Source: an uncultured Spartobacteria bacterium | Lineage (GTDB): Bacteria; Verrucomicrobiota; Verrucomicrobiia; Chthoniobacterales; Chthoniobacteraceae | Direction of reading: 5' to 3' | DNA length: 64,000 nt | NCBI GenBank assembly: GCA_903882875.1 | Contig: CAIRYQ010000023.1 | Span: 3,680-67,679, forward strand | Shown: positions 6,157 through 63,487 of the stretch, one piece after another | How the letters are laid out: each line of letters opens with the position of its first letter | How positions within the stretch are numbered: position 1 is the stretch's first letter | Translations under genes and position numbers: made by a program | The notes under the pieces: generated by a model | The model's database searches: none | What the model was told of the DNA's origin: nothing | What the model saw: only the letters and a program-made list of their open reading frames with translations

Positions 6157-7314
6157 CTATCTCGCAAATTGTGCGATTTTTTCCGCTGCGATGGCGCGTG
6201 CCCACGAGTCGGCGTCGAGGATTTCTGCGAGCGAGGCGTGGGGCTTGTTCCTGTGTGCGCGCATCACACTTTCGACAGTGCGCCAGATCGCGGGGAAGCT
6301 GCACCGATCGTCGAGGAAAGTGGCGACGGCGACTTCGTTGGCGGCATTCATCACCGAGGGCAGCGTGCCGCCATCGGTGCCGGCCCAGCGGGCGAGATCG
6401 AGTGCGGGGAAATCCTTCGTGCGCGGGGCTTCGAATTCGAGCTTCGCGAGCTTGGTGAAATCGAGCGGCGGCAGGCGGTTCGGCACGCGCTCGGGCCACG
6501 TGACTGCGAATTGGATCGGGAAGCACATGTCCGTCGCGCTGAGTTGCGCGAGCACGGAGTTGTCCACGAATTCCACCATCGAATGCACGATGCTCTGCGG
6601 ATGCACGACCACGTCCACGCGCGCCATTTCCACGTCGAAGAGCCACCGCGCCTCGATCATTTCGAGGCCCTTGTTGAAGAGCGTCGCGGAATCAATCGTG
6701 ATCTTCGCACCCATCACCCACGTCGGATGTTTCAACGCCTGAGCACGCGTGACTTTTTCCAAATCCGCCACGGGCAATGTGCGGAACGGTCCACCGCTCG
6801 CGGTGAGAATGATGCGCCGCACCTGTTCCGGGCTGCGGCCCTCGATGCACTGGAAAATCGCGTTGTGCTCGCTGTCCACGGGGAGCACCTGCACACCCCT
6901 TTTCCGCGCGGCGGTCATCACCGCTTCGCCGGCCATCACGAGGATTTCCTTGCTCGCGACGGCGATGTCCTTCCCCGCCTCGATCGCCGCGAGCGCGGGC
7001 CGCAGGCCTGCTGTGCCGACGATCGCGATGAGCACGAGATCGGCTTCGGGCAATGCGGCGAGTTCGCAGAGCCCTTCATCACCGGCAAGAACGGGGCATT
7101 CGATTGCAGATTGCAGATCGCGGATTGCAGATTGCTCCGCGACCGATACGGCCCTCGGGTGAAATTCCCGCGCCTGCTCGATCAGCCGCGCGGAGTTTTT
7201 CCCGGCGGCGAGGCCGACGACTTCCATGCGCTCGGGGATGTCGCGCGCGACCTTCAGCGCGCTTTCGCCGATGCTCCCGGTGGAGCCGAGGATGACGACG
7301 CGGCGCTTTTTCAT
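6157..7314 (-). CDS. dxr: 1-deoxy-D-xylulose 5-phosphate reductoisomerase
   Basis: 385 aa. VVILGSTGSIGESAL NADPH-binding N-terminus and PVDSEHNAIFQC catalytic motif. ATGA overlap with the cdsA stop. Confidence 0.95.
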   Translation of the reverse strand: MKKRRVVILGSTGSIGESALKVARDIPERMEVVGLAAGKNSARLIEQAREFHPRAVSVAEQSAIRDLQSAIECPVLAGDEGLCELAALPEADLVLIAIVGTAGLRPALAAIEAGKDIAVASKEILVMAGEAVMTAARKRGVQVLPVDSEHNAIFQCIEGRSPEQVRRIILTASGGPFRTLPVADLEKVTRAQALKHPTWVMGAKITIDSATLFNKGLEMIEARWLFDVEMARVDVVVHPQSIVHSMVEFVDNSVLAQLSATDMCFPIQFAVTWPERVPNRLPPLDFTKLAKLEFEAPRTKDFPALDLARWAGTDGGTLPSVMNAANEVAVATFLDDRCSFPAIWRTVESVMRAHRNKPHASLAEILDADSWARAIAAEKIAQFAR

Positions 7315-38666: not shown

Positions 38667-38730
38667 CACGCGCCCGGCAGGCTGCGGCAGCGCGTTTCAT
38701 GGACTTCATCGAGGGCCAACGGCCCCGCAC

Positions 38731-38914
38731 AAGCCAGCCCAGGGCAAGTCCGCGTGATGGCTGCATCACGCGGACGCCGCCCTGGGATCTGAATGAAGAA
38801 TGATCAATGCCCTGAAGGGGCGGGACAAACCGTGTGGCGCCCCTTCAGGGCTTTGTCCTTTTTCCACGCTATTCCCAGGGCGGCGCTCGTTCCTCGCTTG
38901 CCCTGGGCTGGCTT
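38731..38914. repeat. 184-nt perfectly nested palindromic element (four perfect helices)
   Basis: P1 38731-38748 pairs with 38897-38914 (18 bp). P2 is a hairpin, 38748-38759 with 38764-38775 (12 bp). P3 38776-38786 pairs with 38874-38884 (11 bp). P4 is a hairpin, 38809-38822 with 38838-38851 (14 bp), followed by a T-rich run. Confidence 0.75.
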
Positions 38915-39101
38915 GTTCCGGGCCTTTGGCCCGCGATGCACCGCGGTTTTCAAAGTGCATGACACGCTGCGGCAACGGCCAAGATCCAACGAACACACCC
39001 TCGCCGGGATTGCCCGTCGCACACTTCACCGCTATTCCCGACACCATGCGTGAGCGGGCGGGAGGAAAACGGATCGGAGCGCGCAACGCGGAGCACGGAT
39101 T

Positions 39102-39156
39102 GTGACTGGTGACTGGTGACTGGTGAATGGATGGGCGCTTCTAGTCACCAGTCACA
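39102..39156. repeat. Inverted heptamer arrays (GTGACTG x3.5 / CAGTCAC x2) forming a hairpin in the 5' leader of the 39197 gene
   Basis: gtgactggtgactggtgactggtga, then a 16-nt spacer, then agtcaccagtcaca. The arms are reverse complements over 13 nt. Confidence 0.8.
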
Positions 39157-39196
39157 GCCTCTTGCCCGCCGCACCTTTCCAATTTATCCACGCACC

Positions 39197-42100
39197 ATGC
39201 GCACGCCCCTCCTCTCCCTCGTCCTCGCACTCGCAGCGATTTTTTCCACGCACGCCGCCGAGCCCTTTGAGATAAAAGACGGCGACCGCGTCCTCTTCCT
39301 CGGGGACACGCTCCTCGAACGCGAGGGCACCTACGGCTACCTCGAGACCCGCATGGCCGAGCAGTTCCCCGACCGGAAGTTCACCGTGCGCAACCTCGCC
39401 TTCAGCGCCGACACGCCGCTCGGCTGGTCGCGCGCGTCGTTCGACCCCGCGGCGAAGGGCTTCGAGCGGCTGAAGGAGCAGCTCGCGCTCGTGCAGCCCA
39501 CGGTCGTCTTCCTCGGCTACGGCATGGCCGCGAGCCTGCAGGAAATGACCGACCGCTCGCAGGACTGGACGCTGAACCGCGACACCGCCCGCTACGGTGC
39601 CGAGCCGATGAGCGCCGGGCGGTTCAAACGCGAGCTTGCACAACTCATGGACGCAATCGTGGAGGGAAACCGGAAACCGGATACCGGATACCGGAAAGGG
39701 GAAGATGGCGACGCTGACGCGTCGAAGCAGAATCTATCCGGTATCCGGTATCCGGTATCCGGTTTCCGTTTCGTCCTGCTCTCGCCGATCCGGCACGAGG
39801 ACTTGCGCGCGACGCGCCCCGGCCTGCCCGACCCGACGGAGCACAACAAGCTGCTGGAGCAATACAGCAAGGCCATCGAGGAACTGGCGAAGGAGCGCGG
39901 GGCGCGGTTTGTCTCGCTGAACTTCCCGTTAATCTACCATCTCACACCCGAGCAAATCGCGACGAATATGGGAGGGCCGAATCCGATTCTCTTGACGGAC
40001 AACGGCATCCATCTCAACGAGGTGGGTTACGTCGGGATGCTGCGCCAAATGTGTGAGGCTCTCAGTTGGGGCAGCTACCTCGGGAAGGGAGTGGCGCTCG
40101 GTGAACCCATTTCCACACCGCCGGGACCCAAATTCACTCAGGAGGATATCGCGGCATCTTTGAAATGGCATGAGCGCAAGGAAGCCCTCCGCGCCGCCAT
40201 CATCCGCAAGAACGCGCTCTTCTTCCACCGCTGGCGGCCGGCGAATGAGACCTACCTCTTCGGCTTCCGCAAACGCGAGCAGGGGCAGAACGCCGTCGAG
40301 ATTCCGAAGTTCGACCCGCTCATCGAAGCCGCCGAGGCCGAGATCGAGAAGCTGAAGCACGCTCCCAAGGGGGCCAGCGTCATGCCCTCCGAAGACGGGG
40401 CCACGGCTGACATTCACGGCGGCGTGTCCCCCGAACTCCCTGCTGTGTCCGCCGAACACCGGTCGGTGTCTGGCGAACACCGATCGGTGTCTGACGAACA
40501 CCGGTCGGTGTCTGGCGAACACCGGTCGGTGTCTGACGAACACCGGTCGGTGTCTGGCGAACACCGGTCGGTGTCTGGCGAACACCGGTCGGTGTCTGAC
40601 GAACACCGGTCAGTGTCTGACGAACACCGGTCGGTGTTTGACGAACACCGGTCGGTGTTTGACGAACACCGGTCGGTGTTTGACGAACACACAGCCGCTT
40701 CCGCGCAGCAAAAGGCCGATTTTCAGCCACAAACGCCCGTTTTCACCTCCGCCGGCCAACTTTACGCAGCCAACGACACCCCGGCGATCGGGAACCAGCC
40801 CCCAGTCACCAGTCACCAGTCACCAGTCACATCCCCCGACCCCGCCCGCCAGACCCCCGCCGAGACGCCCGACCTTTCCAAGCTCCCCGCCTCGCCCTCC
40901 ACCCTCCCGCTCCCCACCTTCACCCTCGCCGACGGCCTCGAAATCTCCCTCTGGGCCGAAAACCCGCTCCTCGCCAAGCCGACCGAGATGAATTGGGACG
41001 CACAGGGCCGCCTGTGGGTGGCGAGCAGCGCACTGTATCCCATGATCGCCCCCGGCCAGGCGGCGGACGACAAAATCCTCATCCTCGAAGACCCCGGCCA
41101 CACGGGGAAGGGGACGAAGAGCACGGTCTTCGTGGACGGGCTGCTGCTGCCGACGGGGGTGGCACCGGTGCTCGTGGAAGACCGGAAAGCGGATACCGGA
41201 AACCGGAAAGGGGAAGATGGCGACGCTGACGCGTCTAAGCAGAATCTATCCGGTATCCGCTCTCCGGTATCCGGTATCGCCCGCTGGGCCTGCTACGTCG
41301 GCCAGTCCACCGAGCTGCTCTACTTCGAGGACACGCAAGGCACCGGCAAGGCGGACAAAAAGCGCATCGTCCTCAGCGGATTCGGCACCGAGGACACGCA
41401 CCACATCGTCCACACCCTGCGCTGGGGGCCGGATGGCCGGCTCTATTTTAACCAAAGCGTGTACATCCACACGCACATGGAGACGCCGTGGGGCGTCGTG
41501 CGGCTGAACAGCGGCGGCGTCTTCGCCTACGACCCGCGCACCGAGCGCGTGGAAGTCGTCACGAAGGGCCTCTGGAACACGTGGGGCCACGCATGGGACC
41601 AATGGGGCCAGAGCTTCCTCTCGGATGGCGCGGGCTTCAGCGGCATCTCGTGGGCATTCCCCGGAGCCGTCTTCAACCCGAGCGAAGGCAGCCGCCGGCA
41701 GATGCCCAGCATCAGCCCCGGCAGCTACCCGAAATTCGCCGGCCTCGAGCTCATCTACAGCCCGCACTTCCCCGCCGAGTGGCAGGGCACGGCGGTGACG
41801 TGCGACTTCCGCGCGCACAAAATCGTGCATTTCAAGATCAACGACCTCGGTTTGGAGCAGTCAGCAAAGAGCGGCTACGTCACCGATCAGCTCCCCGTGC
41901 TTGCGCAGACGAGCGACGCGACCTTCCGCCCGATTGACGTGAAGCTCGGCCCCGACGGCGCGATCTACATCGCCGACTGGAGCAACCCGATCATCAACCA
42001 CGGCGAAGTGGACTTCCGCGACCCGCGCCGCGACCACGAGCACGGCCGCATCTGGCGCCTGAGCATGAAGGGTGGAGCGGCGGTGAAGTGGGAGAGTCTG

Positions 42101-44182
42101 GTGGGGAAAAATAAGGAGGAGCTAATTTCAGCGCGCCGTTCAAAAAGCCAATGGGCACTGGAACAAGCGACTCACTTGCTAATCTACAGACCGCACACCG
42201 AAGCAGAACGCCAAGCCAGCCGCGACAGCTTGCTCGTCCAGATGCTTACCGACCCGGCGGCTCAATTTGAGGTTCCCGCATTACTCATCCTCAATACCAG
42301 GCCTCGCATCCGCATCGGAGCGATGCGAGCACTTGCGCGCTTACCAAAAATCGAAAGCGCCTCGCTCATCCTCGACGCCGCGATCAACGCGCCGAAGGAC
42401 GATCCGTTTTACGAGTTCGCCGCGTGGCTTTCCATCAATGACGTCGCGGAGGTCTGGACGGAGGCGGTGCTCGCCGGGAAATGGAAAATCGAGGGGCGCG
42501 AGAAGCAGTTGGAGTTTGCGCTCGATGCGCTGGATGCGGCCCGCTCCGGCCCCGTCATCGCCGCGCTGCTCAAGGAGCGGCCCATCACCCGCGACGGCGC
42601 GGGCCCGTGGATCGAGCTCATCGGCAAAGGCGGCGGCAAGGCCGAGCTGGAGCAGCTTTTCGAGCGTGTCGCGAAGGGCGACTTCGAGCCGCCCGCATTC
42701 GTCCGCGCGATCAACGCGCTCGCCGACGCCGCCCGCCTCCGCAACCTCCGCCCCGAGGGCAACCTTGCATCCATCAGAATGTGCCTCGTCGATCCTCATG
42801 CGGAGATCGCTTCCGCCGCCGCGCGCCTTGCGGGCCAGTGGCATCTTTCCGAAGTCGTGCCGTATATCGTCAATCTCGCACAGCATCCGGATGAGGGACC
42901 GCGCGCCGCCGCAATCGAGGGATTGCGCAACGTCGGCGGTGCCAAGGCCGTTGACGGGCTGCTATCCCTGACGCGCTCGAGAAGACCGGAGGTTCGGCCC
43001 GCCGCCCTCGCCGCGCTCGCGCAGCTCAAGCCCGCCGCCGCCATTTCCGAAATCCCGACCGTGCTCGGCGCAATCCAGTCCGAGCCCGAGCTGCTCGCCA
43101 CATGGCGCGGCATTTTCCAATCGAAGGAAGCCGCCGACACGCTGGCGAAGAACTTTCCGGCGGACCTCCCGAAGCCCGTCATCACCGCCGCGCTGCACGC
43201 CGCGCGCGAGCTTGGCCGCAAGGGCGAACGTCTCGTCGCGAAACTCGCGCCGCTCGCCGGCGAGAGCCTCGCGAATTTCGTCCCCGCCGATTTCGCCGAC
43301 CTCGCCGCCCGCGCGAAAAAGGACGGCGACCCCGTGGCCGGCGAAGCCCTGTATCGCCGCATGGCCAGCGCCTGCACGACCTGCCACGCCATTGGCGGAG
43401 CCGGCGGCAAGCTCGGCCCCGACCTCACGAGCATCGGCGCGAGCGCACCGGCGGACTACATCATCGAGAGCGTGCTGAACCCCGCCGCGAAAGTGAAGGA
43501 AGGCTACCATGCGTTTTCCTTCGCGATGAAGGACGGCACCGAGGCCATCGGCATCCCGACGCGCGAGACGCCGCAGGAGCAGTTCATCCGCACGATCGCC
43601 GGCGAGCAGGGACTGCCGAAGGCGAACATCGTTTCCAAAAAAATCGCCGAGGGCGGCGCAAGCCTGATGCCCGCCGGCCTCACCGCCGCATGGAGCGACC
43701 GCGAGCGGCTGAACCTCTACGCATTCCTCATGGAGCTGGGCCGCCCCGGCCCCTTCGACGCGAGCAAGAACAACGTGGCGCGCGTGTGGCAGCTCACCGA
43801 CTCCGGCAAAGTGGACGGCGCTCTGAAAGTCGAAGCCGCAGCGTCCACGCCGTCCATCCCGTCCACCTACGCCTACACCCTCGTGGACGGTCGCCTCACC
43901 AAGGACCTCCTCACCGAGAAGCTCGCCATCCTCCAGCCGAAGAACACCGCCGTGCATCTCACCGCGCGCTTCCAAGCCGCGAGCGCCGGCAAGGCCAAGC
44001 TCAACCTCACCGGCATCCGCAAAGCCTGGCTCGACGGCCAGCCCCTCGCCATCGCCAGCGAGCCGAGCCCGAGCGTCGAACTGACCGCAGGCGCGCACAC
44101 TTTCACCGTCGAAGTGGACGCCAAGTCCCCGCCCGAAGTCCTGCGCCTCGAATCGCCCGCGGCGAATTTCCTCGGGGACTGA
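39197..44182 (+). CDS. Giant secreted multidomain protein: SGNH/GDSL-like hydrolase + PVC-type membrane-bound-dehydrogenase beta-propeller + HEAT repeats + CxxCH cytochrome c domain
   Basis: The ATG at 39197 gives signal peptide MRTPLLSLVLALAAIFSTHA. SGNH block DGDRVLFLGDTLLERE. FTLADGLEISLWAENPLLAKPTEMNWDAQGRLWVA matches the Pirellula/Verrucomicrobium dehydrogenase N-domain type. HEAT-like repeats (VRPAALAALAQL). Heme motif CTTCHAIGGAGGKLGPDL. Contains three repeat families, listed separately. Confidence 0.85.
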   Translation: MRTPLLSLVLALAAIFSTHAAEPFEIKDGDRVLFLGDTLLEREGTYGYLETRMAEQFPDRKFTVRNLAFSADTPLGWSRASFDPAAKGFERLKEQLALVQPTVVFLGYGMAASLQEMTDRSQDWTLNRDTARYGAEPMSAGRFKRELAQLMDAIVEGNRKPDTGYRKGEDGDADASKQNLSGIRYPVSGFRFVLLSPIRHEDLRATRPGLPDPTEHNKLLEQYSKAIEELAKERGARFVSLNFPLIYHLTPEQIATNMGGPNPILLTDNGIHLNEVGYVGMLRQMCEALSWGSYLGKGVALGEPISTPPGPKFTQEDIAASLKWHERKEALRAAIIRKNALFFHRWRPANETYLFGFRKREQGQNAVEIPKFDPLIEAAEAEIEKLKHAPKGASVMPSEDGATADIHGGVSPELPAVSAEHRSVSGEHRSVSDEHRSVSGEHRSVSDEHRSVSGEHRSVSGEHRSVSDEHRSVSDEHRSVFDEHRSVFDEHRSVFDEHTAASAQQKADFQPQTPVFTSAGQLYAANDTPAIGNQPPVTSHQSPVTSPDPARQTPAETPDLSKLPASPSTLPLPTFTLADGLEISLWAENPLLAKPTEMNWDAQGRLWVASSALYPMIAPGQAADDKILILEDPGHTGKGTKSTVFVDGLLLPTGVAPVLVEDRKADTGNRKGEDGDADASKQNLSGIRSPVSGIARWACYVGQSTELLYFEDTQGTGKADKKRIVLSGFGTEDTHHIVHTLRWGPDGRLYFNQSVYIHTHMETPWGVVRLNSGGVFAYDPRTERVEVVTKGLWNTWGHAWDQWGQSFLSDGAGFSGISWAFPGAVFNPSEGSRRQMPSISPGSYPKFAGLELIYSPHFPAEWQGTAVTCDFRAHKIVHFKINDLGLEQSAKSGYVTDQLPVLAQTSDATFRPIDVKLGPDGAIYIADWSNPIINHGEVDFRDPRRDHEHGRIWRLSMKGGAAVKWESLVGKNKEELISARRSKSQWALEQATHLLIYRPHTEAERQASRDSLLVQMLTDPAAQFEVPALLILNTRPRIRIGAMRALARLPKIESASLILDAAINAPKDDPFYEFAAWLSINDVAEVWTEAVLAGKWKIEGREKQLEFALDALDAARSGPVIAALLKERPITRDGAGPWIELIGKGGGKAELEQLFERVAKGDFEPPAFVRAINALADAARLRNLRPEGNLASIRMCLVDPHAEIASAAARLAGQWHLSEVVPYIVNLAQHPDEGPRAAAIEGLRNVGGAKAVDGLLSLTRSRRPEVRPAALAALAQLKPAAAISEIPTVLGAIQSEPELLATWRGIFQSKEAADTLAKNFPADLPKPVITAALHAARELGRKGERLVAKLAPLAGESLANFVPADFADLAARAKKDGDPVAGEALYRRMASACTTCHAIGGAGGKLGPDLTSIGASAPADYIIESVLNPAAKVKEGYHAFSFAMKDGTEAIGIPTRETPQEQFIRTIAGEQGLPKANIVSKKIAEGGASLMPAGLTAAWSDRERLNLYAFLMELGRPGPFDASKNNVARVWQLTDSGKVDGALKVEAAASTPSIPSTYAYTLVDGRLTKDLLTEKLAILQPKNTAVHLTARFQAASAGKAKLNLTGIRKAWLDGQPLAIASEPSPSVELTAGAHTFTVEVDAKSPPEVLRLESPAANFLGD
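39665..39771. repeat. Intragenic palindromic element, copy 1 (inverted heptamer-array arms + 43-nt core), in frame
   Basis: Left arm ggaaaccggaaaccggataccggataccgg. Right arm ccggtatccggtatccggtatccggtttccg (reverse complement). The 58-nt core 39690-39747 is 57/58 identical to 41202-41259. Confidence 0.85.
40445..40690 (+). repeat. 21-nt tandem repeat, ~11.7 copies, in frame (VS[G/D/A]EHRS)n
   Basis: The unit gaacaccggtcggtgtctg[g/a]c is repeated head to tail. Each unit contains the palindrome acaccg-gt-cggtgt. The last three units share a variant (ttt, giving VFDEHRS). Confidence 0.9.
40803..40830 (+). repeat. Heptamer array CAGTCAC x4 inside the CDS
   Basis: Exactly four tandem copies. 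It is the same heptamer family as the leader hairpin at 39102-39156. Confidence 0.9.
41181..41280. repeat. Intragenic palindromic element, copy 2, in frame
   Basis: accggaaagcggataccggaaaccgg, then the core, then ccggtatccgctctccggtatccggtatcg. It has the same codon phase as copy 1 and encodes the near-identical peptide RKGEDGDADASKQNLSGIR. Confidence 0.85.
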
Positions 44183-62179: not shown

Positions 62180-63487
62180 ATGAACGGAACCGATACTCTC
62201 GCACGCCTGCGCGCCGCGATCCCCGAGGGGGGATTGTTTGCGGAAAAGGACTGGCTGCTCTCGCCCGAGCCGCTGCGCATTGACGCCGCATTCGCCGAGG
62301 AACTCCAAAAGCTCGGCCGCCGCCTCACGATCTTCCAGCGCGCGCAGAACGAACTCTACCAGCGCAGCGCGAACGGCAAGGCACCCGCATGGATCGCCGA
62401 CTGCCTCGATCGCGGAAAGCCGGTGGAACTCATCGGGTTCGCGCGGCGCAAGCAGTTCCGCGCCGACGTGCCGCAGGTCATCCGTCCCGATCTGCTGCTC
62501 ACTGCGGAAGGCTTCGCGATCACCGAGCTGGACAGCGTCCCCGGCGGTATCGGCCTCACCGCGTGGCTCGCAAAAAATTACAGCGAACTCGGATTCGACC
62601 TCCTCGGCGGCGCTGACGGAATGCCCGCCGGCTTCCGCTCCATCCTCGGCGACAGCGCGGACATCCTCGTCTCCGACGAATCCGCCACCTACCGCCCCGA
62701 GATGCAATGGCTCGCCGAACGTGCGAACGAAACCGGCGCACAGTGGACCGTTCAGCGCGCGGAGGACTTCACTCCGCACTCCGCACTTCGCACTCCGCAT
62801 TCGCTCTACCGTTTCTTCGAGCTATTCGATCTCCCGAACATCCCCGCCGCACGCGCCATCATGGACGCCGCGGCGAATGGCGCGCGCATCACGCCGCCCT
62901 TCAAGCCGTGGCTCGAAGAAAAAATATGGCTCGCACTTTTCTGGTCGCGCCCCCTCCGCGAATTCTGGCGACGCGAACTCACTGAGCGCAACTGGCTCAT
63001 CCTCCAAAAGCACATCCCGCAGTCGTGGATTCTCGATCCCGCACCGCTGCCGCATCACGCCGTTCTGCCGTGGCTGAACATCTCCTCGTGGGACGAGCTG
63101 AAGACCTTCTCGCAAAAGGAACGCGACTTCGTTTTGAAGGTCAGCGGCTTCTCGCCCGAGTCGTGGGGCAGTCGCGGCGTCACCGTCGGCGCCGATGTCC
63201 CGCAGGCCGAATGGGCCGCCGCGATTGACCGCGCCGTCGCCGCCTTCCCGCATCACCCGCACGTCCTCATGCGCTTCGCCCGCTCACGCATCGTCGAGCA
63301 TCCGTATTTCGATCCCGCGACCGGCGAAATCCGCACCATGCGCGGCCGCGTGCGCCTTTGCCCGTACTACTTCGTCGCCGACGGCGAAACCAAGCTCGGT
63401 GGCATCCTCGCCACCATCGTCCCCGCGGACAAGAAGCTCATCCACGGAATGAGCGACGCGATTCTGGTGCCGGTGGCGGTGAAGTAA
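62180..63487 (+). CDS. Hypothetical protein (435 aa), possibly ATP-grasp-like
   Basis: Good coding composition. VIRPDLLLTAEGFAITELDSVPGGIG and LMRFARSRIVEHPYF are reminiscent of ATP-grasp-type ligases, but the assignment is weak. Contains a heptamer array at 62771-62804. Confidence 0.6.
   Translation: MNGTDTLARLRAAIPEGGLFAEKDWLLSPEPLRIDAAFAEELQKLGRRLTIFQRAQNELYQRSANGKAPAWIADCLDRGKPVELIGFARRKQFRADVPQVIRPDLLLTAEGFAITELDSVPGGIGLTAWLAKNYSELGFDLLGGADGMPAGFRSILGDSADILVSDESATYRPEMQWLAERANETGAQWTVQRAEDFTPHSALRTPHSLYRFFELFDLPNIPAARAIMDAAANGARITPPFKPWLEEKIWLALFWSRPLREFWRRELTERNWLILQKHIPQSWILDPAPLPHHAVLPWLNISSWDELKTFSQKERDFVLKVSGFSPESWGSRGVTVGADVPQAEWAAAIDRAVAAFPHHPHVLMRFARSRIVEHPYFDPATGEIRTMRGRVRLCPYYFVADGETKLGGILATIVPADKKLIHGMSDAILVPVAVK

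What the first reader, a model, noticed from the sequence alone, without database searches (positions are those of the whole stretch)
39665..39771. Palindromic ~105-nt element inserted in frame in a protein-coding gene (copy 1 of 2), analogous to Rickettsia palindromic elements
The element has arms made of inverted heptamer arrays: GGAAACC/GGATACC x4 on the left and GGTATCC/GGTTTCC x4 on the right. The arms flank a 43-nt core. It sits inside the SGNH-hydrolase domain of the 1661-aa gene without breaking the frame and adds the peptide NRKPDTGYRKGEDGDADASKQNLSGIRYPVSGFRF. A second copy lies 1.5 kb downstream in the same gene, with a 58-nt core 57/58 identical, in the same codon phase. The element is also free of stop codons in at least one antisense frame of the ORF track. 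In-frame, hairpin-forming mobile repeats that are tolerated inside proteins are well described for Rickettsia RPEs. I am not aware of a description for Verrucomicrobia-like genomes.
Basis: partly seen in the sequence, partly recalled or inferred. Interest (0 to 1): 0.78.

Follow-up and report, generated by a model that had tools for sequence, protein, structure and literature searches.

The report
Heptamer-armed palindromic repeat inside a gene
A hairpin-forming DNA repeat of about 100 bases, with arms made of runs of the 7-base unit CCGGANA, sits twice in frame in surface loops of one large Verrucomicrobial protein; it belongs to a widespread repeat family of soil Verrucomicrobia, found in no paper searched, that is tolerated inside many unrelated genes.

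Summary
Two palindromic elements (39665-39766 and 41180-41278) lie in frame in one 1661-aa gene. They are 92% identical, with a 58-nt centre identical at 57 positions.

They are not RPE-like whole-element copies. What the family shares is convergent arrays of the heptad [C/G]CGGANA. These arrays have no stop codon in any of the six frames.

Hosts include the uvrA of Candidatus Udaeobacter, a VWA/YfbK protein, BatD, a DEAD_2 helicase and an E1 dehydrogenase. At least 19% of sampled elements are in frame inside genes.

I found no target-site duplication, flank motif, recurrent transposase or known RNA family. At orthologous sites the arms stay in family while the cores randomise.

Both loops of the window gene are indel hotspots, and related orthologs carry unrelated palindromes there. 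Copy 2 occupies the slot where two orthologs from both subclades share another heptamer palindrome, so it probably replaced that one recently. The insert is predicted to be a disordered loop.

The closest known analogue is the convergent GGGAATC heptamer pairs of Xanthomonas. My best reading is a selfish or neutral foldback heptamer satellite, a new variant of a known kind.

The parts
39665..39766 (+). Copy 1 of the heptad-armed palindrome: 102 nt, 34 codons (GNRKPDTGYRKGEDGDADASKQNLSGIRYPVSGF). It lies in the loop between a helix and a strand of the SGNH domain.
   Evidence: Boundaries come from orthologs with a short loop. Palindrome and fold. AF2 gives pLDDT 51-58 coil between helix 140-158 and strand 191-195.
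39665..39697 (+). Left arm of copy 1: (GGAAACC)2(GGATACC)2GGAAA, i.e. CCGGANA heptads.
   Evidence: TRF period 7, 4.7 copies; search for CCGGANACCGGANA.
39698..39734 (+). Core of copy 1, with an inner 6-bp hairpin CGACGC-TGAC-GCGTCG.
   Evidence: The 42-nt core is identical in the ortholog locus L022.
39735..39768 (+). Right arm of copy 1: (TATCCGG)4 and one TTTCCG unit, the inverted complement of the left arm.
   Evidence: TRF period 7, 4.9 copies; inverted repeat I3.
41180..41278 (+). Copy 2: 99 nt, 33 codons (DRKADTGNRKGEDGDADASKQNLSGIRSPVSGI). It lies in a loop of the DUF7133 region, in the same codon phase as copy 1.
   Evidence: It sits between the same flanks (GTGGAN | GCCCGCTGGGCC) that hold a (GGAGTCA)n palindrome in L022 and L145.
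39197..44182 (+). Host gene, 1661 aa: signal peptide, SGNH/GDSL hydrolase, repeat-rich linker, DUF7133, HEAT repeats and a CxxCH cytochrome c domain. Sources name homologs 'PVC-type heme-binding CxxCH protein'.
39101..39157 (+). A related hairpin built from a different heptamer, (GTGACTG)4 ... AGTCACCAGTCAC, in the 5' leader about 40 nt upstream of the start codon.
   Evidence: -35.2 kcal/mol, z -5.9.
40794..40830 (+). In-frame (CCAGTCA)5 array (PVTSHQSPVTS) in the linker. It is the inverted complement of the leader array 1.67 kb upstream.
   Evidence: (I5, 30 nt, 97% complementary).
40445..40690 (+). In-frame 21-nt (3 x 7) tandem repeat, 11.7 copies (HRSVSGE/D). Copy number differs between samples.
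   Evidence: P0001 lacks one unit.

Best explanation
The feature is one member, present here in two recently related copies, of a family of foldback heptamer repeats of Chthoniobacterales (Chthoniobacter and Candidatus Udaeobacter). Two arrays of 2-5 units of the heptad [C/G]CGGANA converge on a short core that evolves quickly.

I read it as selfish or neutral DNA, not as a protein motif. It survives inside genes for two reasons. The heptads contain no stop codon in any of the six frames. And the surviving copies sit in surface loops or linkers, where the extra 30-35 residues (ETGNRKP... / ...SGIRYPVSG) are disordered.

Inferred steps:
- The arrays persist through the slippage dynamics known for heptameric simple repeats.
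- The palindrome centre is broken and repaired imprecisely, which would explain the hypervariable cores.
- Whole elements are occasionally copied or replaced by recombinational or templated repair at these fragile hairpin sites, rather than by a transposase that duplicates its target.

In the window gene, the site-1 element is shared with one ortholog (P0002, 83.7% identical over ungapped columns). Copy 2 is a recent copy of a site-1-type element into a second permissive loop. There it probably replaced an older, unrelated (GGAGTCA)n palindrome.
For: Shown:
- The palindrome and the second copy are real.
- The family is large.
- Real host genes come from unrelated families: uvrA, YfbK/VWA (inside the YfbK_C domain), BatD, a DEAD_2 helicase (two elements) and the linker of an E1 dehydrogenase fusion.
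- At least 22 of 115 unique elements are in frame, with coding GC3 periodicity on both flanks.
- The uvrA host has orthologs at 79-100% identity, and six of the eight that carry an NCBI name are called Candidatus Udaeobacter or Verrucomicrobia. Homologs of the window protein are named Chthoniobacter.
- The arms are stop-free in all frames, which follows directly from the sequence; copy 1 is open in 4 of 6 frames.
- Five of the six fixed heptad positions are complementary between arms in 92-97% of unit pairs. The first position is C/G-variable (73%). The N position is complementary in only 42%, against 33% by chance.
- There is no target-site duplication and no flank motif, no recurrent transposase-like neighbour and no Rfam family.
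- In orthologous pairs the arms stay in family while the cores fall to random-level identity and change length.
- Both loops are indel hotspots that carry different palindromes in different orthologs. L022 and L145 share a (GGAGTCA)n palindrome in exactly the slot that holds copy 2 in the window, and they lie in different subclades.
- AF2 gives a confident SGNH fold, with the insert as coil at pLDDT 51-58.

Precedent: convergent heptamer pairs, conserved in type but variable in length, occur in Xanthomonas, and a slippage explanation has been proposed for heptamers (PMC4692102).
Against: - No complete genome of the source was available, so copy number, same-core copies elsewhere and unbiased orientation statistics are unknown.
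- The metagenome sample was selected by my own pattern. That pattern requires two perfect units per arm and a gap of 15-45 nt between the matched blocks.
- Retention of the heptad consensus at orthologous sites while the cores randomise could mean selection on the arms, that is a function, rather than repeat dynamics.
- The repair-based copying step is inferred from one replacement event and from the absence of transposition signatures. It has not been observed.
- Fuzzy element ends weaken the test for target-site duplication.
- Translation of the insert is assumed from the intact frame, not shown.
Confidence: 0.58

Rival explanations
1. It is a true non-autonomous transposable element (MITE or RPE-like), moved in trans by a transposase or recombinase that recognises the heptad arrays as terminal inverted repeats. 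The variable core would be dispensable cargo.
For: - The family is dispersed across many unrelated genes and intergenic sites.
- The arms are conserved by sequence rather than by pairing, as expected for protein-binding ends.
- Only the convergent arrangement was seen.
- The same loops received different palindromes in related orthologs.
- Two same-core copies lie 1.5 kb apart, which could be local hopping.
Against: - No target-site duplication beyond the shuffled expectation and no conserved flank.
- Cores differ even between two elements in one gene (L043, L074, L024).
- No transposase-like gene recurs near the elements.
- The exact core is absent from Verrucomicrobia among the GTDB representative genomes.
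- Insertion replaced native loop nucleotides instead of adding cleanly.
- Array ends fade into variant heptads rather than ending at defined termini.
Confidence: 0.2
2. It is a functional cis-element. The heptad arrays might be cooperative binding sites for a DNA-binding protein, as with heptad operators or centromere-like sites. Alternatively, the long hairpin might act in the mRNA, through RNase III processing, ribosome pausing between folding units, or translational control when it lies in a 5' leader.
For: - The arms remain in family at orthologous sites while the cores randomise.
- The N position is free, so the sequence is conserved more than the pairing.
- Several elements lie just upstream of start codons (the L026 group; L148; the leader hairpin).
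- The folds are very stable.
Against: - Locations have no consistent relation to genes: inside enzyme domains, in linkers, and in intergenic DNA.
- The same loop of Udaeobacter uvrA holds several different heptamer types across 80-85% identical orthologs, which looks like turnover and not constraint.
- Orthologs of the window gene do well with other inserts or none.
- No Rfam family matches.
Confidence: 0.12
3. It is a simple internal duplication of a protein segment selected for a role in the protein, with the DNA palindrome being incidental.
For: The two copies have the same phase and nearly the same peptide, and the repeat is in frame.
Against: - The symmetry is at the DNA level, with heptads on both strands.
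- The same arms occur in non-coding DNA and in unrelated proteins.
- The insert is predicted to be disordered.
- Orthologs lack it or carry unrelated inserts.
Confidence: 0.03

Closest known systems
Convergent pairs of heptameric simple repeats, (GGGAATC)n, in Xanthomonas campestris and X. axonopodis (Rehm et al. 2015, PMC4692102)
   Same: Two short arrays of a 7-nt unit always face each other around a spacer, giving a potential stem-loop. They are dispersed over the genome. The type (single or paired) is kept at orthologous loci while the lengths vary. No transposition signature is reported.
   Different: The unit is [C/G]CGGANA, which has no G-quadruplex potential. The host is Verrucomicrobia. 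The Xanthomonas repeats are 89-93% intergenic and under-represented in genes. Here at least 19% of those sampled are in frame inside genes, including enzyme domains, and whole elements with one core can be copied.
Rickettsia palindromic elements, RPE (Ogata et al. 2000, as summarised in PMC10969869)
   Same: Palindromic repeats of about 100-150 bp inserted in frame in many unrelated genes. They add a peptide at positions compatible with the fold and are regarded as selfish DNA.
   Different: RPE families have a conserved full-length consensus, and each encodes a conserved peptide. Here only the heptad arms are shared and the cores differ. The arms are tandem heptamers. The taxon is not Rickettsia.
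Bacterial MITEs (Correia, ERIC, BOX, Nezha and others; review PMC10969869)
   Same: Small, non-coding, inverted-repeat-ended and dispersed. They are sometimes intragenic and give in-frame fusions.
   Different: MITEs have defined terminal inverted repeats, target-site duplications and a parent IS. None of these was found.
REP/BIME elements and their RAYT transposases (PMC3733652; the details are my own knowledge)
   Same: Short dispersed imperfect palindromes, often in inverted pairs with variable linkers. They are conserved as a family rather than as whole copies.
   Different: REPs are extragenic, 20-40 nt, carry a GTAG or CGTC head and are linked to RAYT genes. Here the arms are heptamer arrays, none of the sequences I read shows such a head, many copies are intragenic, and no associated gene was seen.
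Cyanobacterial heptameric tandem repeats (STRR; Calothrix and Nostoc, cited in PMC4692102) and the Chloroflexus (GATAGRA)n satellites (PMC6749651)
   Same: Genome-wide over-representation of one or a few heptamer units in short arrays. About a third of the Nostoc repeats are intragenic.
   Different: They are mostly single arrays, and few pairs could form inverted repeats in Nostoc. The units and the taxa also differ.
Foldback transposons of Drosophila (my own knowledge; not checked here)
   Same: Long inverted arms built from tandem short sub-repeats around a variable or absent centre.
   Different: They are eukaryotic, kilobase-sized and transposase-associated. There is no in-frame tolerance.

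Membership tests
Rickettsia palindromic elements (RPE) | A palindromic element of about 100-150 bp inserted in frame in unrelated protein-coding genes. | tested here: met
   Searches show in-frame hairpin elements in at least six unrelated host families.
Rickettsia palindromic elements (RPE) | Copies of a family share a full-length consensus and encode a conserved peptide. | tested here: not met
   No core recurred among the 123 elements outside near-identical or orthologous contigs; only the heptad arms are shared. The same core was seen only in this gene and in the ortholog L022.
Rickettsia palindromic elements (RPE) | The insert lies at a surface position compatible with the protein fold. 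| tested here: met
   AF2 places the insert as low-confidence coil between a confident helix and strand. The position is rich in indels among orthologs.
MITE | A target-site duplication flanks the element. | tested here: not met
   The distribution of direct repeats at the flanks equals the shuffled control in 109 elements. Boundaries are fuzzy, so short duplications could be missed.
MITE | Terminal inverted repeats related to an autonomous IS or transposase in the same genomes. | tested here: inconclusive
   No transposase-like ORF recurs in 0.86 Mb around the elements. Whole genomes were not available.
REP/BIME | Extragenic 20-40-nt palindromes with a conserved GTAG or CGTC head, linked to RAYT. 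| tested here: not met
   Arms are arrays of 14-35 nt of [C/G]CGGANA. None of the sequences I read shows a GTAG or CGTC head (no formal scan was run). At least 19% are intragenic.
Convergent heptameric SSR pairs (Xanthomonas type) | Two arrays of one heptamer on opposite strands, in convergent orientation and close together. | tested here: met
   Counts are 92 convergent versus 0 divergent in the fetched loci (a biased sample) and 2 versus 0 in viral contigs (unbiased but tiny).
Convergent heptameric SSR pairs (Xanthomonas type) | At orthologous loci the type is conserved while the unit number and the spacer vary. | tested here: met
   Orthologous pairs keep the arms, whereas the cores change in sequence and length. 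The uvrA loop varies from 23 to 54 aa.
Convergent heptameric SSR pairs (Xanthomonas type) | Predominantly intergenic and under-represented in coding regions. | tested here: not met
   At least 22 of 115 are in frame in genes by a strict test, and 71 of 127 lie in long open frames.
Structured RNA family (Rfam) | A match to a curated covariance model. | tested here: not met
   Only sub-threshold matches to eukaryotic miRNA hairpins, at most 32 bits against gathering scores of 59-200.

The most novel reading that the evidence does not exclude
Each element could be the scar of a healed DNA double-strand break. In this reading a templated or slippage-prone polymerase (telomerase-like, reverse-transcriptase-like or primase-polymerase-like) adds CCGGANA heptads to the 3' end on both sides of a break. 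The two extended ends are then joined through filler DNA.

This single mechanism would account for:
- the exclusively convergent orientation;
- the N positions and unit numbers of the two arms being nearly independent;
- the absence of target-site duplications;
- the loss of native loop nucleotides at the site;
- the unrelated, hypervariable cores.

It does not explain the same-core pair in this gene without a second copying step.
Probability: 0.07. Interest if true: 0.9.

Novelty: new variant of a known kind. Interest (0 to 1): 0.6.

Why it matters
Chthoniobacterales, and Candidatus Udaeobacter in particular, are (from my own knowledge) among the most abundant soil bacteria.

A repeat family that writes 30-35 extra residues into surface loops of core proteins (UvrA, Dxr-type enzymes, dehydrogenases, secreted haem proteins) would have several consequences:
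- It would be a major and unrecognised source of protein-length variation in these organisms.
- It would be a source of assembly and annotation artefacts.
- It could serve as a strain-level marker.

It also widens the RPE idea, selfish DNA that lives inside proteins, to a free-living phylum. Here the architecture is different: conserved heptad arms around a disposable core. That raises a mechanistic question that can be tested: what keeps a 7-nt unit constant when neither base pairing nor coding constrains it?

Tried and rejected
- **Core scan of GTDB genomes.** The exact 20-nt core gave only chance hits in Enterobacterales, Actinomycetes and others.
- **Peptide search.** I searched the four open frames of copy 1 against 5.8 billion proteins. 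It returned only spurious short ORFs over long (GGTATCC)n arrays. It did not even recover the host protein, so it is a weak negative.
- **Orthology of copy 2 with L023.** I first took window copy 2 and the L023 site-2 element for orthologs because they share the odd unit CCGCTCTCCGG. I dropped this because that unit is common across the family, core identity is at random level, and the boundaries differ by 1-3 codons.
- **Identity threshold.** My first flank-identity threshold of 0.6 admitted random pairs. I used only pairs with clearly orthologous flanks.
- **Transposition signatures.** The test for target-site duplication and flank motif was negative. Guilt by association for a transposase was negative.
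- **Known RNA families.** The Rfam scan was negative.
- **Leader region.** The promoter and terminator scan of the leader found nothing.
- **Plasmids and phages.** Plasmids gave only solo heptamer arrays in Burkholderia and Ralstonia and an uninspected short hit in Natrialba; phages gave none.
- **Symmetry of the arms.** The correlation of arm lengths is weak (r = 0.30) and does not settle whether the arms are symmetric or independent.
Full report
**1.
- At 39665-39768, TRF finds two period-7 arrays: 4.7 copies of GGAAACC/GGATACC and 4.9 copies of TATCCGG.
- They form 34-nt arms that are 94% complementary and 35 nt apart.
- As RNA, the 116-nt stretch folds at -75.7 kcal/mol (z = -9.9; 0 of 200 shuffles fold as well). 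The opposite strand folds about as well.
- A second copy lies exactly 1512 nt downstream. It is 92% identical over 103 nt, and 57 of 58 identical across the centre, in the same codon phase.
- The 42-nt core occurs nowhere else in the 64-kb window.
- Heptad doublets outside the two elements are at chance level: 7 found against 6.2 expected.
- Both copies lie in ORF 39197-44182. This is a 1661-aa secreted protein with a GDSL/SGNH domain (aa 43-278), DUF7133, HEAT repeats and a CxxCH haem site. Its homologs are named Chthoniobacter or Chthoniobacteraceae 'PVC-type heme-binding CxxCH protein'.
- Copy 1 is open in four of six frames.

**2. The inserts sit in hypervariable loops.** I aligned the protein with 19 orthologs.
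- Both positions are indel hotspots between highly conserved blocks.
- Distant orthologs (P0031, P0038, P0044) and one closer one (P0005) have only 4-10 residues at site 1.
- DNA of those short-loop alleles fixes the inserted stretches at 39665-39766 (34 codons) and 41180-41278 (33 codons). The native 12-24 nt of loop is missing, so this is not a clean insertion.
- An AlphaFold model of the first 348 residues (pTM 0.81) gives a confident SGNH-like fold. The insert is coil at pLDDT 51-58, between helix 140-158 and strand 191-195.

**3. The same loops hold other palindromes in relatives.**
- P0002 (locus L022) carries the same element at site 1 with an identical 42-nt core.
- At site 2, L022 has a decayed (GGTCAGG/CCTGACC) palindrome. 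It is homologous to the clean (GGAGTCA)n/(CTGACTC)n palindrome of L145 (P0006). Both lie between exactly the flanks (GTGGAN | GCCCGCTGGGCC) that enclose copy 2 in the window.
- Pairwise identities place the window with P0002-P0004, and P0005 with P0006. The (GGAGTCA)n element at site 2 is therefore probably ancestral.
- It follows that window copy 2 is a later replacement, derived from a site-1-type element. Its left arm matches site 1 of L022 better than it matches window copy 1.
- P0004 and P0006 share yet another palindrome at site 1. P0006 and P0038 each carry their own element twice in the gene.

**4. It belongs to a large family defined by its arms.**
- The exact 20-nt core gave only chance hits in 185,579 representative genomes.
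- No core recurred among the 123 elements outside near-identical or orthologous contigs, and cores differ even between two elements in one gene.
- Five of the six fixed heptad positions are complementary between arms in 92-97% of 384 unit pairs. The first position varies C/G (73%). The N position is complementary in 42%, against 33% expected. Sequence is therefore conserved more than pairing.
- Arms have mostly 2-5 units, and their lengths correlate only weakly (r = 0.30).
- Cores are modestly self-complementary (mean z -0.68; 20% fall below -1.64).

**5. Many members are in frame in real genes.**
- 71 of 127 elements lie in long open frames.
- By a strict test (at least 240 nt open on both sides, with coding GC3 periodicity in the same frame), 22 of 115 unique elements are intragenic.
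- Pfam confirms the following hosts: double-ABC UvrA, YfbK/VWA (inside the YfbK_C domain), BatD, a DEAD_2 helicase with two elements, and the linker of an E1 dehydrogenase alpha-beta fusion.
- Orthologs of the uvrA host are 79-100% identical, and six of the eight that carry an NCBI name are called Candidatus Udaeobacter or Verrucomicrobia.
- In 98 of those orthologs the same loop holds a segment of 23-54 aa in several types. At least three types read as translated heptamer arrays (ETGNRKP.../...SGIRYPVS; DCGMRNAE.../...SEIRNPQSA; NAQRPTP.../DHRSPIT). No empty allele was found.
- The heptads cannot encode a stop in any frame on either strand. This follows directly from the sequence.

**6. There is no sign of classical transposition or of a known RNA.**
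- Flanking direct repeats match the shuffled expectation, and flank information content is at most 0.15 bit.
- No transposase-like ORF recurs in 0.86 Mb around the elements.
- Rfam gives only sub-threshold hairpin noise.
- Phages have no match. Plasmid-collection hits are solo heptamer arrays in Burkholderia and Ralstonia, plus one short uninspected hit in Natrialba.
- Where flanks are 70-93% identical between orthologous loci, the arms remain in family, but the cores drop to random-level identity and change length.
- Only the convergent arrangement was seen: 92 versus 0 in the selected loci, and 2 versus 0 in an unbiased but tiny viral scan.

**7. Comparison with what is known.**
- In-frame tolerance resembles RPEs. 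But RPE families share a full-length consensus and a conserved peptide, and that feature fails here.
- The defining features of MITEs and of REP/BIME elements also fail or are inconclusive.
- The nearest described pattern is the convergent pairs of (GGGAATC)n in Xanthomonas. There are 70-75 pairs per genome, the type is conserved and the length variable between species, and they are mostly intergenic.
- That sits alongside the general over-representation of heptameric repeats, which has been attributed to polymerase slippage.
- No paper found describes such elements in Verrucomicrobia.

**8. Interpretation.**
- The best-supported reading is a selfish or neutral foldback heptamer satellite. It is tolerated in proteins because it has no stop codons and survives only in loops.
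- I infer that slippage maintains the arrays, that breakage and imprecise repair at the hairpin centre randomise the cores, and that occasional repair-templated copying explains the same-core pair and the replacement at site 2.
- A transposase-driven MITE, a functional heptad-binding or RNA element, and break healing by heptad addition all remain possible at lower probability.

Noticed in passing
window 39101-39157: A third hairpin is built from a different heptamer, (GTGACTG)4 ... AGTCACCAGTCAC. It lies in the 5' leader about 40 nt upstream of the start codon (-35.2 kcal/mol, z -5.9). It could affect translation initiation.
   Followed up: partly
window 39101-39130 and 40802-40831: The leader (GTGACTG)n array and the in-frame (CCAGTCA)5 array (PVTSHQSPVTS, conserved in P0002-P0005) are 30-nt inverted repeats, 97% complementary and 1.67 kb apart. 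They bracket the start codon, the SGNH domain and the 21-nt repeat. Whether this segment can invert was not tested.
   Followed up: no
window 40445-40690: An in-frame 21-nt (3 x 7) tandem repeat of 11.7 units (HRSVSGE/D). Each unit holds an ACACCGG/CCGGTGT mini-palindrome. An otherwise identical protein from another assembly (P0001) has one unit fewer, so the copy number is polymorphic.
   Followed up: partly
window 7102-7135: A (GATTGCA)x4.9 heptamer array lies in frame inside dxr (minus strand, AEQSAIRDLQSAIE). Its unit GGATTGC/GCAATCC is the variant seen on the outer arms of many family members and in one type of the Udaeobacter uvrA loop.
   Followed up: partly
window 62770-62799: A (CACTCCG)x4.3 array lies inside ORF 62180-63487 (+), which has no Pfam match. 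Its coding status was not established.
   Followed up: no
window 38707-38938: Nested long inverted repeats lie in the intergenic region upstream of the gene: 42-nt arms at 90% complementarity 148 nt apart, enclosing 53-nt arms at 75%. Their nature is unknown.
   Followed up: no
L145 (P0006) and P0038: Other orthologs also carry two copies of their own palindromic element within this same gene. P0006 has the (GGAGTCA)n element in the linker and at site 2. P0038 has a GRVGVPPA...GGTPTLP element twice. Intragenic doubling therefore recurs with different element families.
   Followed up: partly
P0137-P0256 (Udaeobacter UvrA orthologs), loop after 'ALRFGKG': One loop of an essential repair protein is hypervariable (23-54 aa) across 80-85% identical orthologs. 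It switches between several heptamer-array types and could serve as a strain marker.
   Followed up: partly
L146 (Burkholderia stagnalis, 3.2-Mb replicon) 270-340; L147 (Ralstonia) 301-326: Solo arrays of the same heptad occur outside Verrucomicrobia. (CCGGACA)3(CCGGAAA)4(CCGGACA)4 lies directly upstream of a ribosome-binding site and start codon, and Ralstonia has (CCGGTAT)3. Neither has an inverted partner.
   Followed up: partly
L148 2698-2769; L149 1316-1389 (IMG/VR contigs): Two family members occur on contigs classified as viral. They are intergenic, and one lies about 10 nt upstream of a start codon. The hosts were not identified.
   Followed up: no
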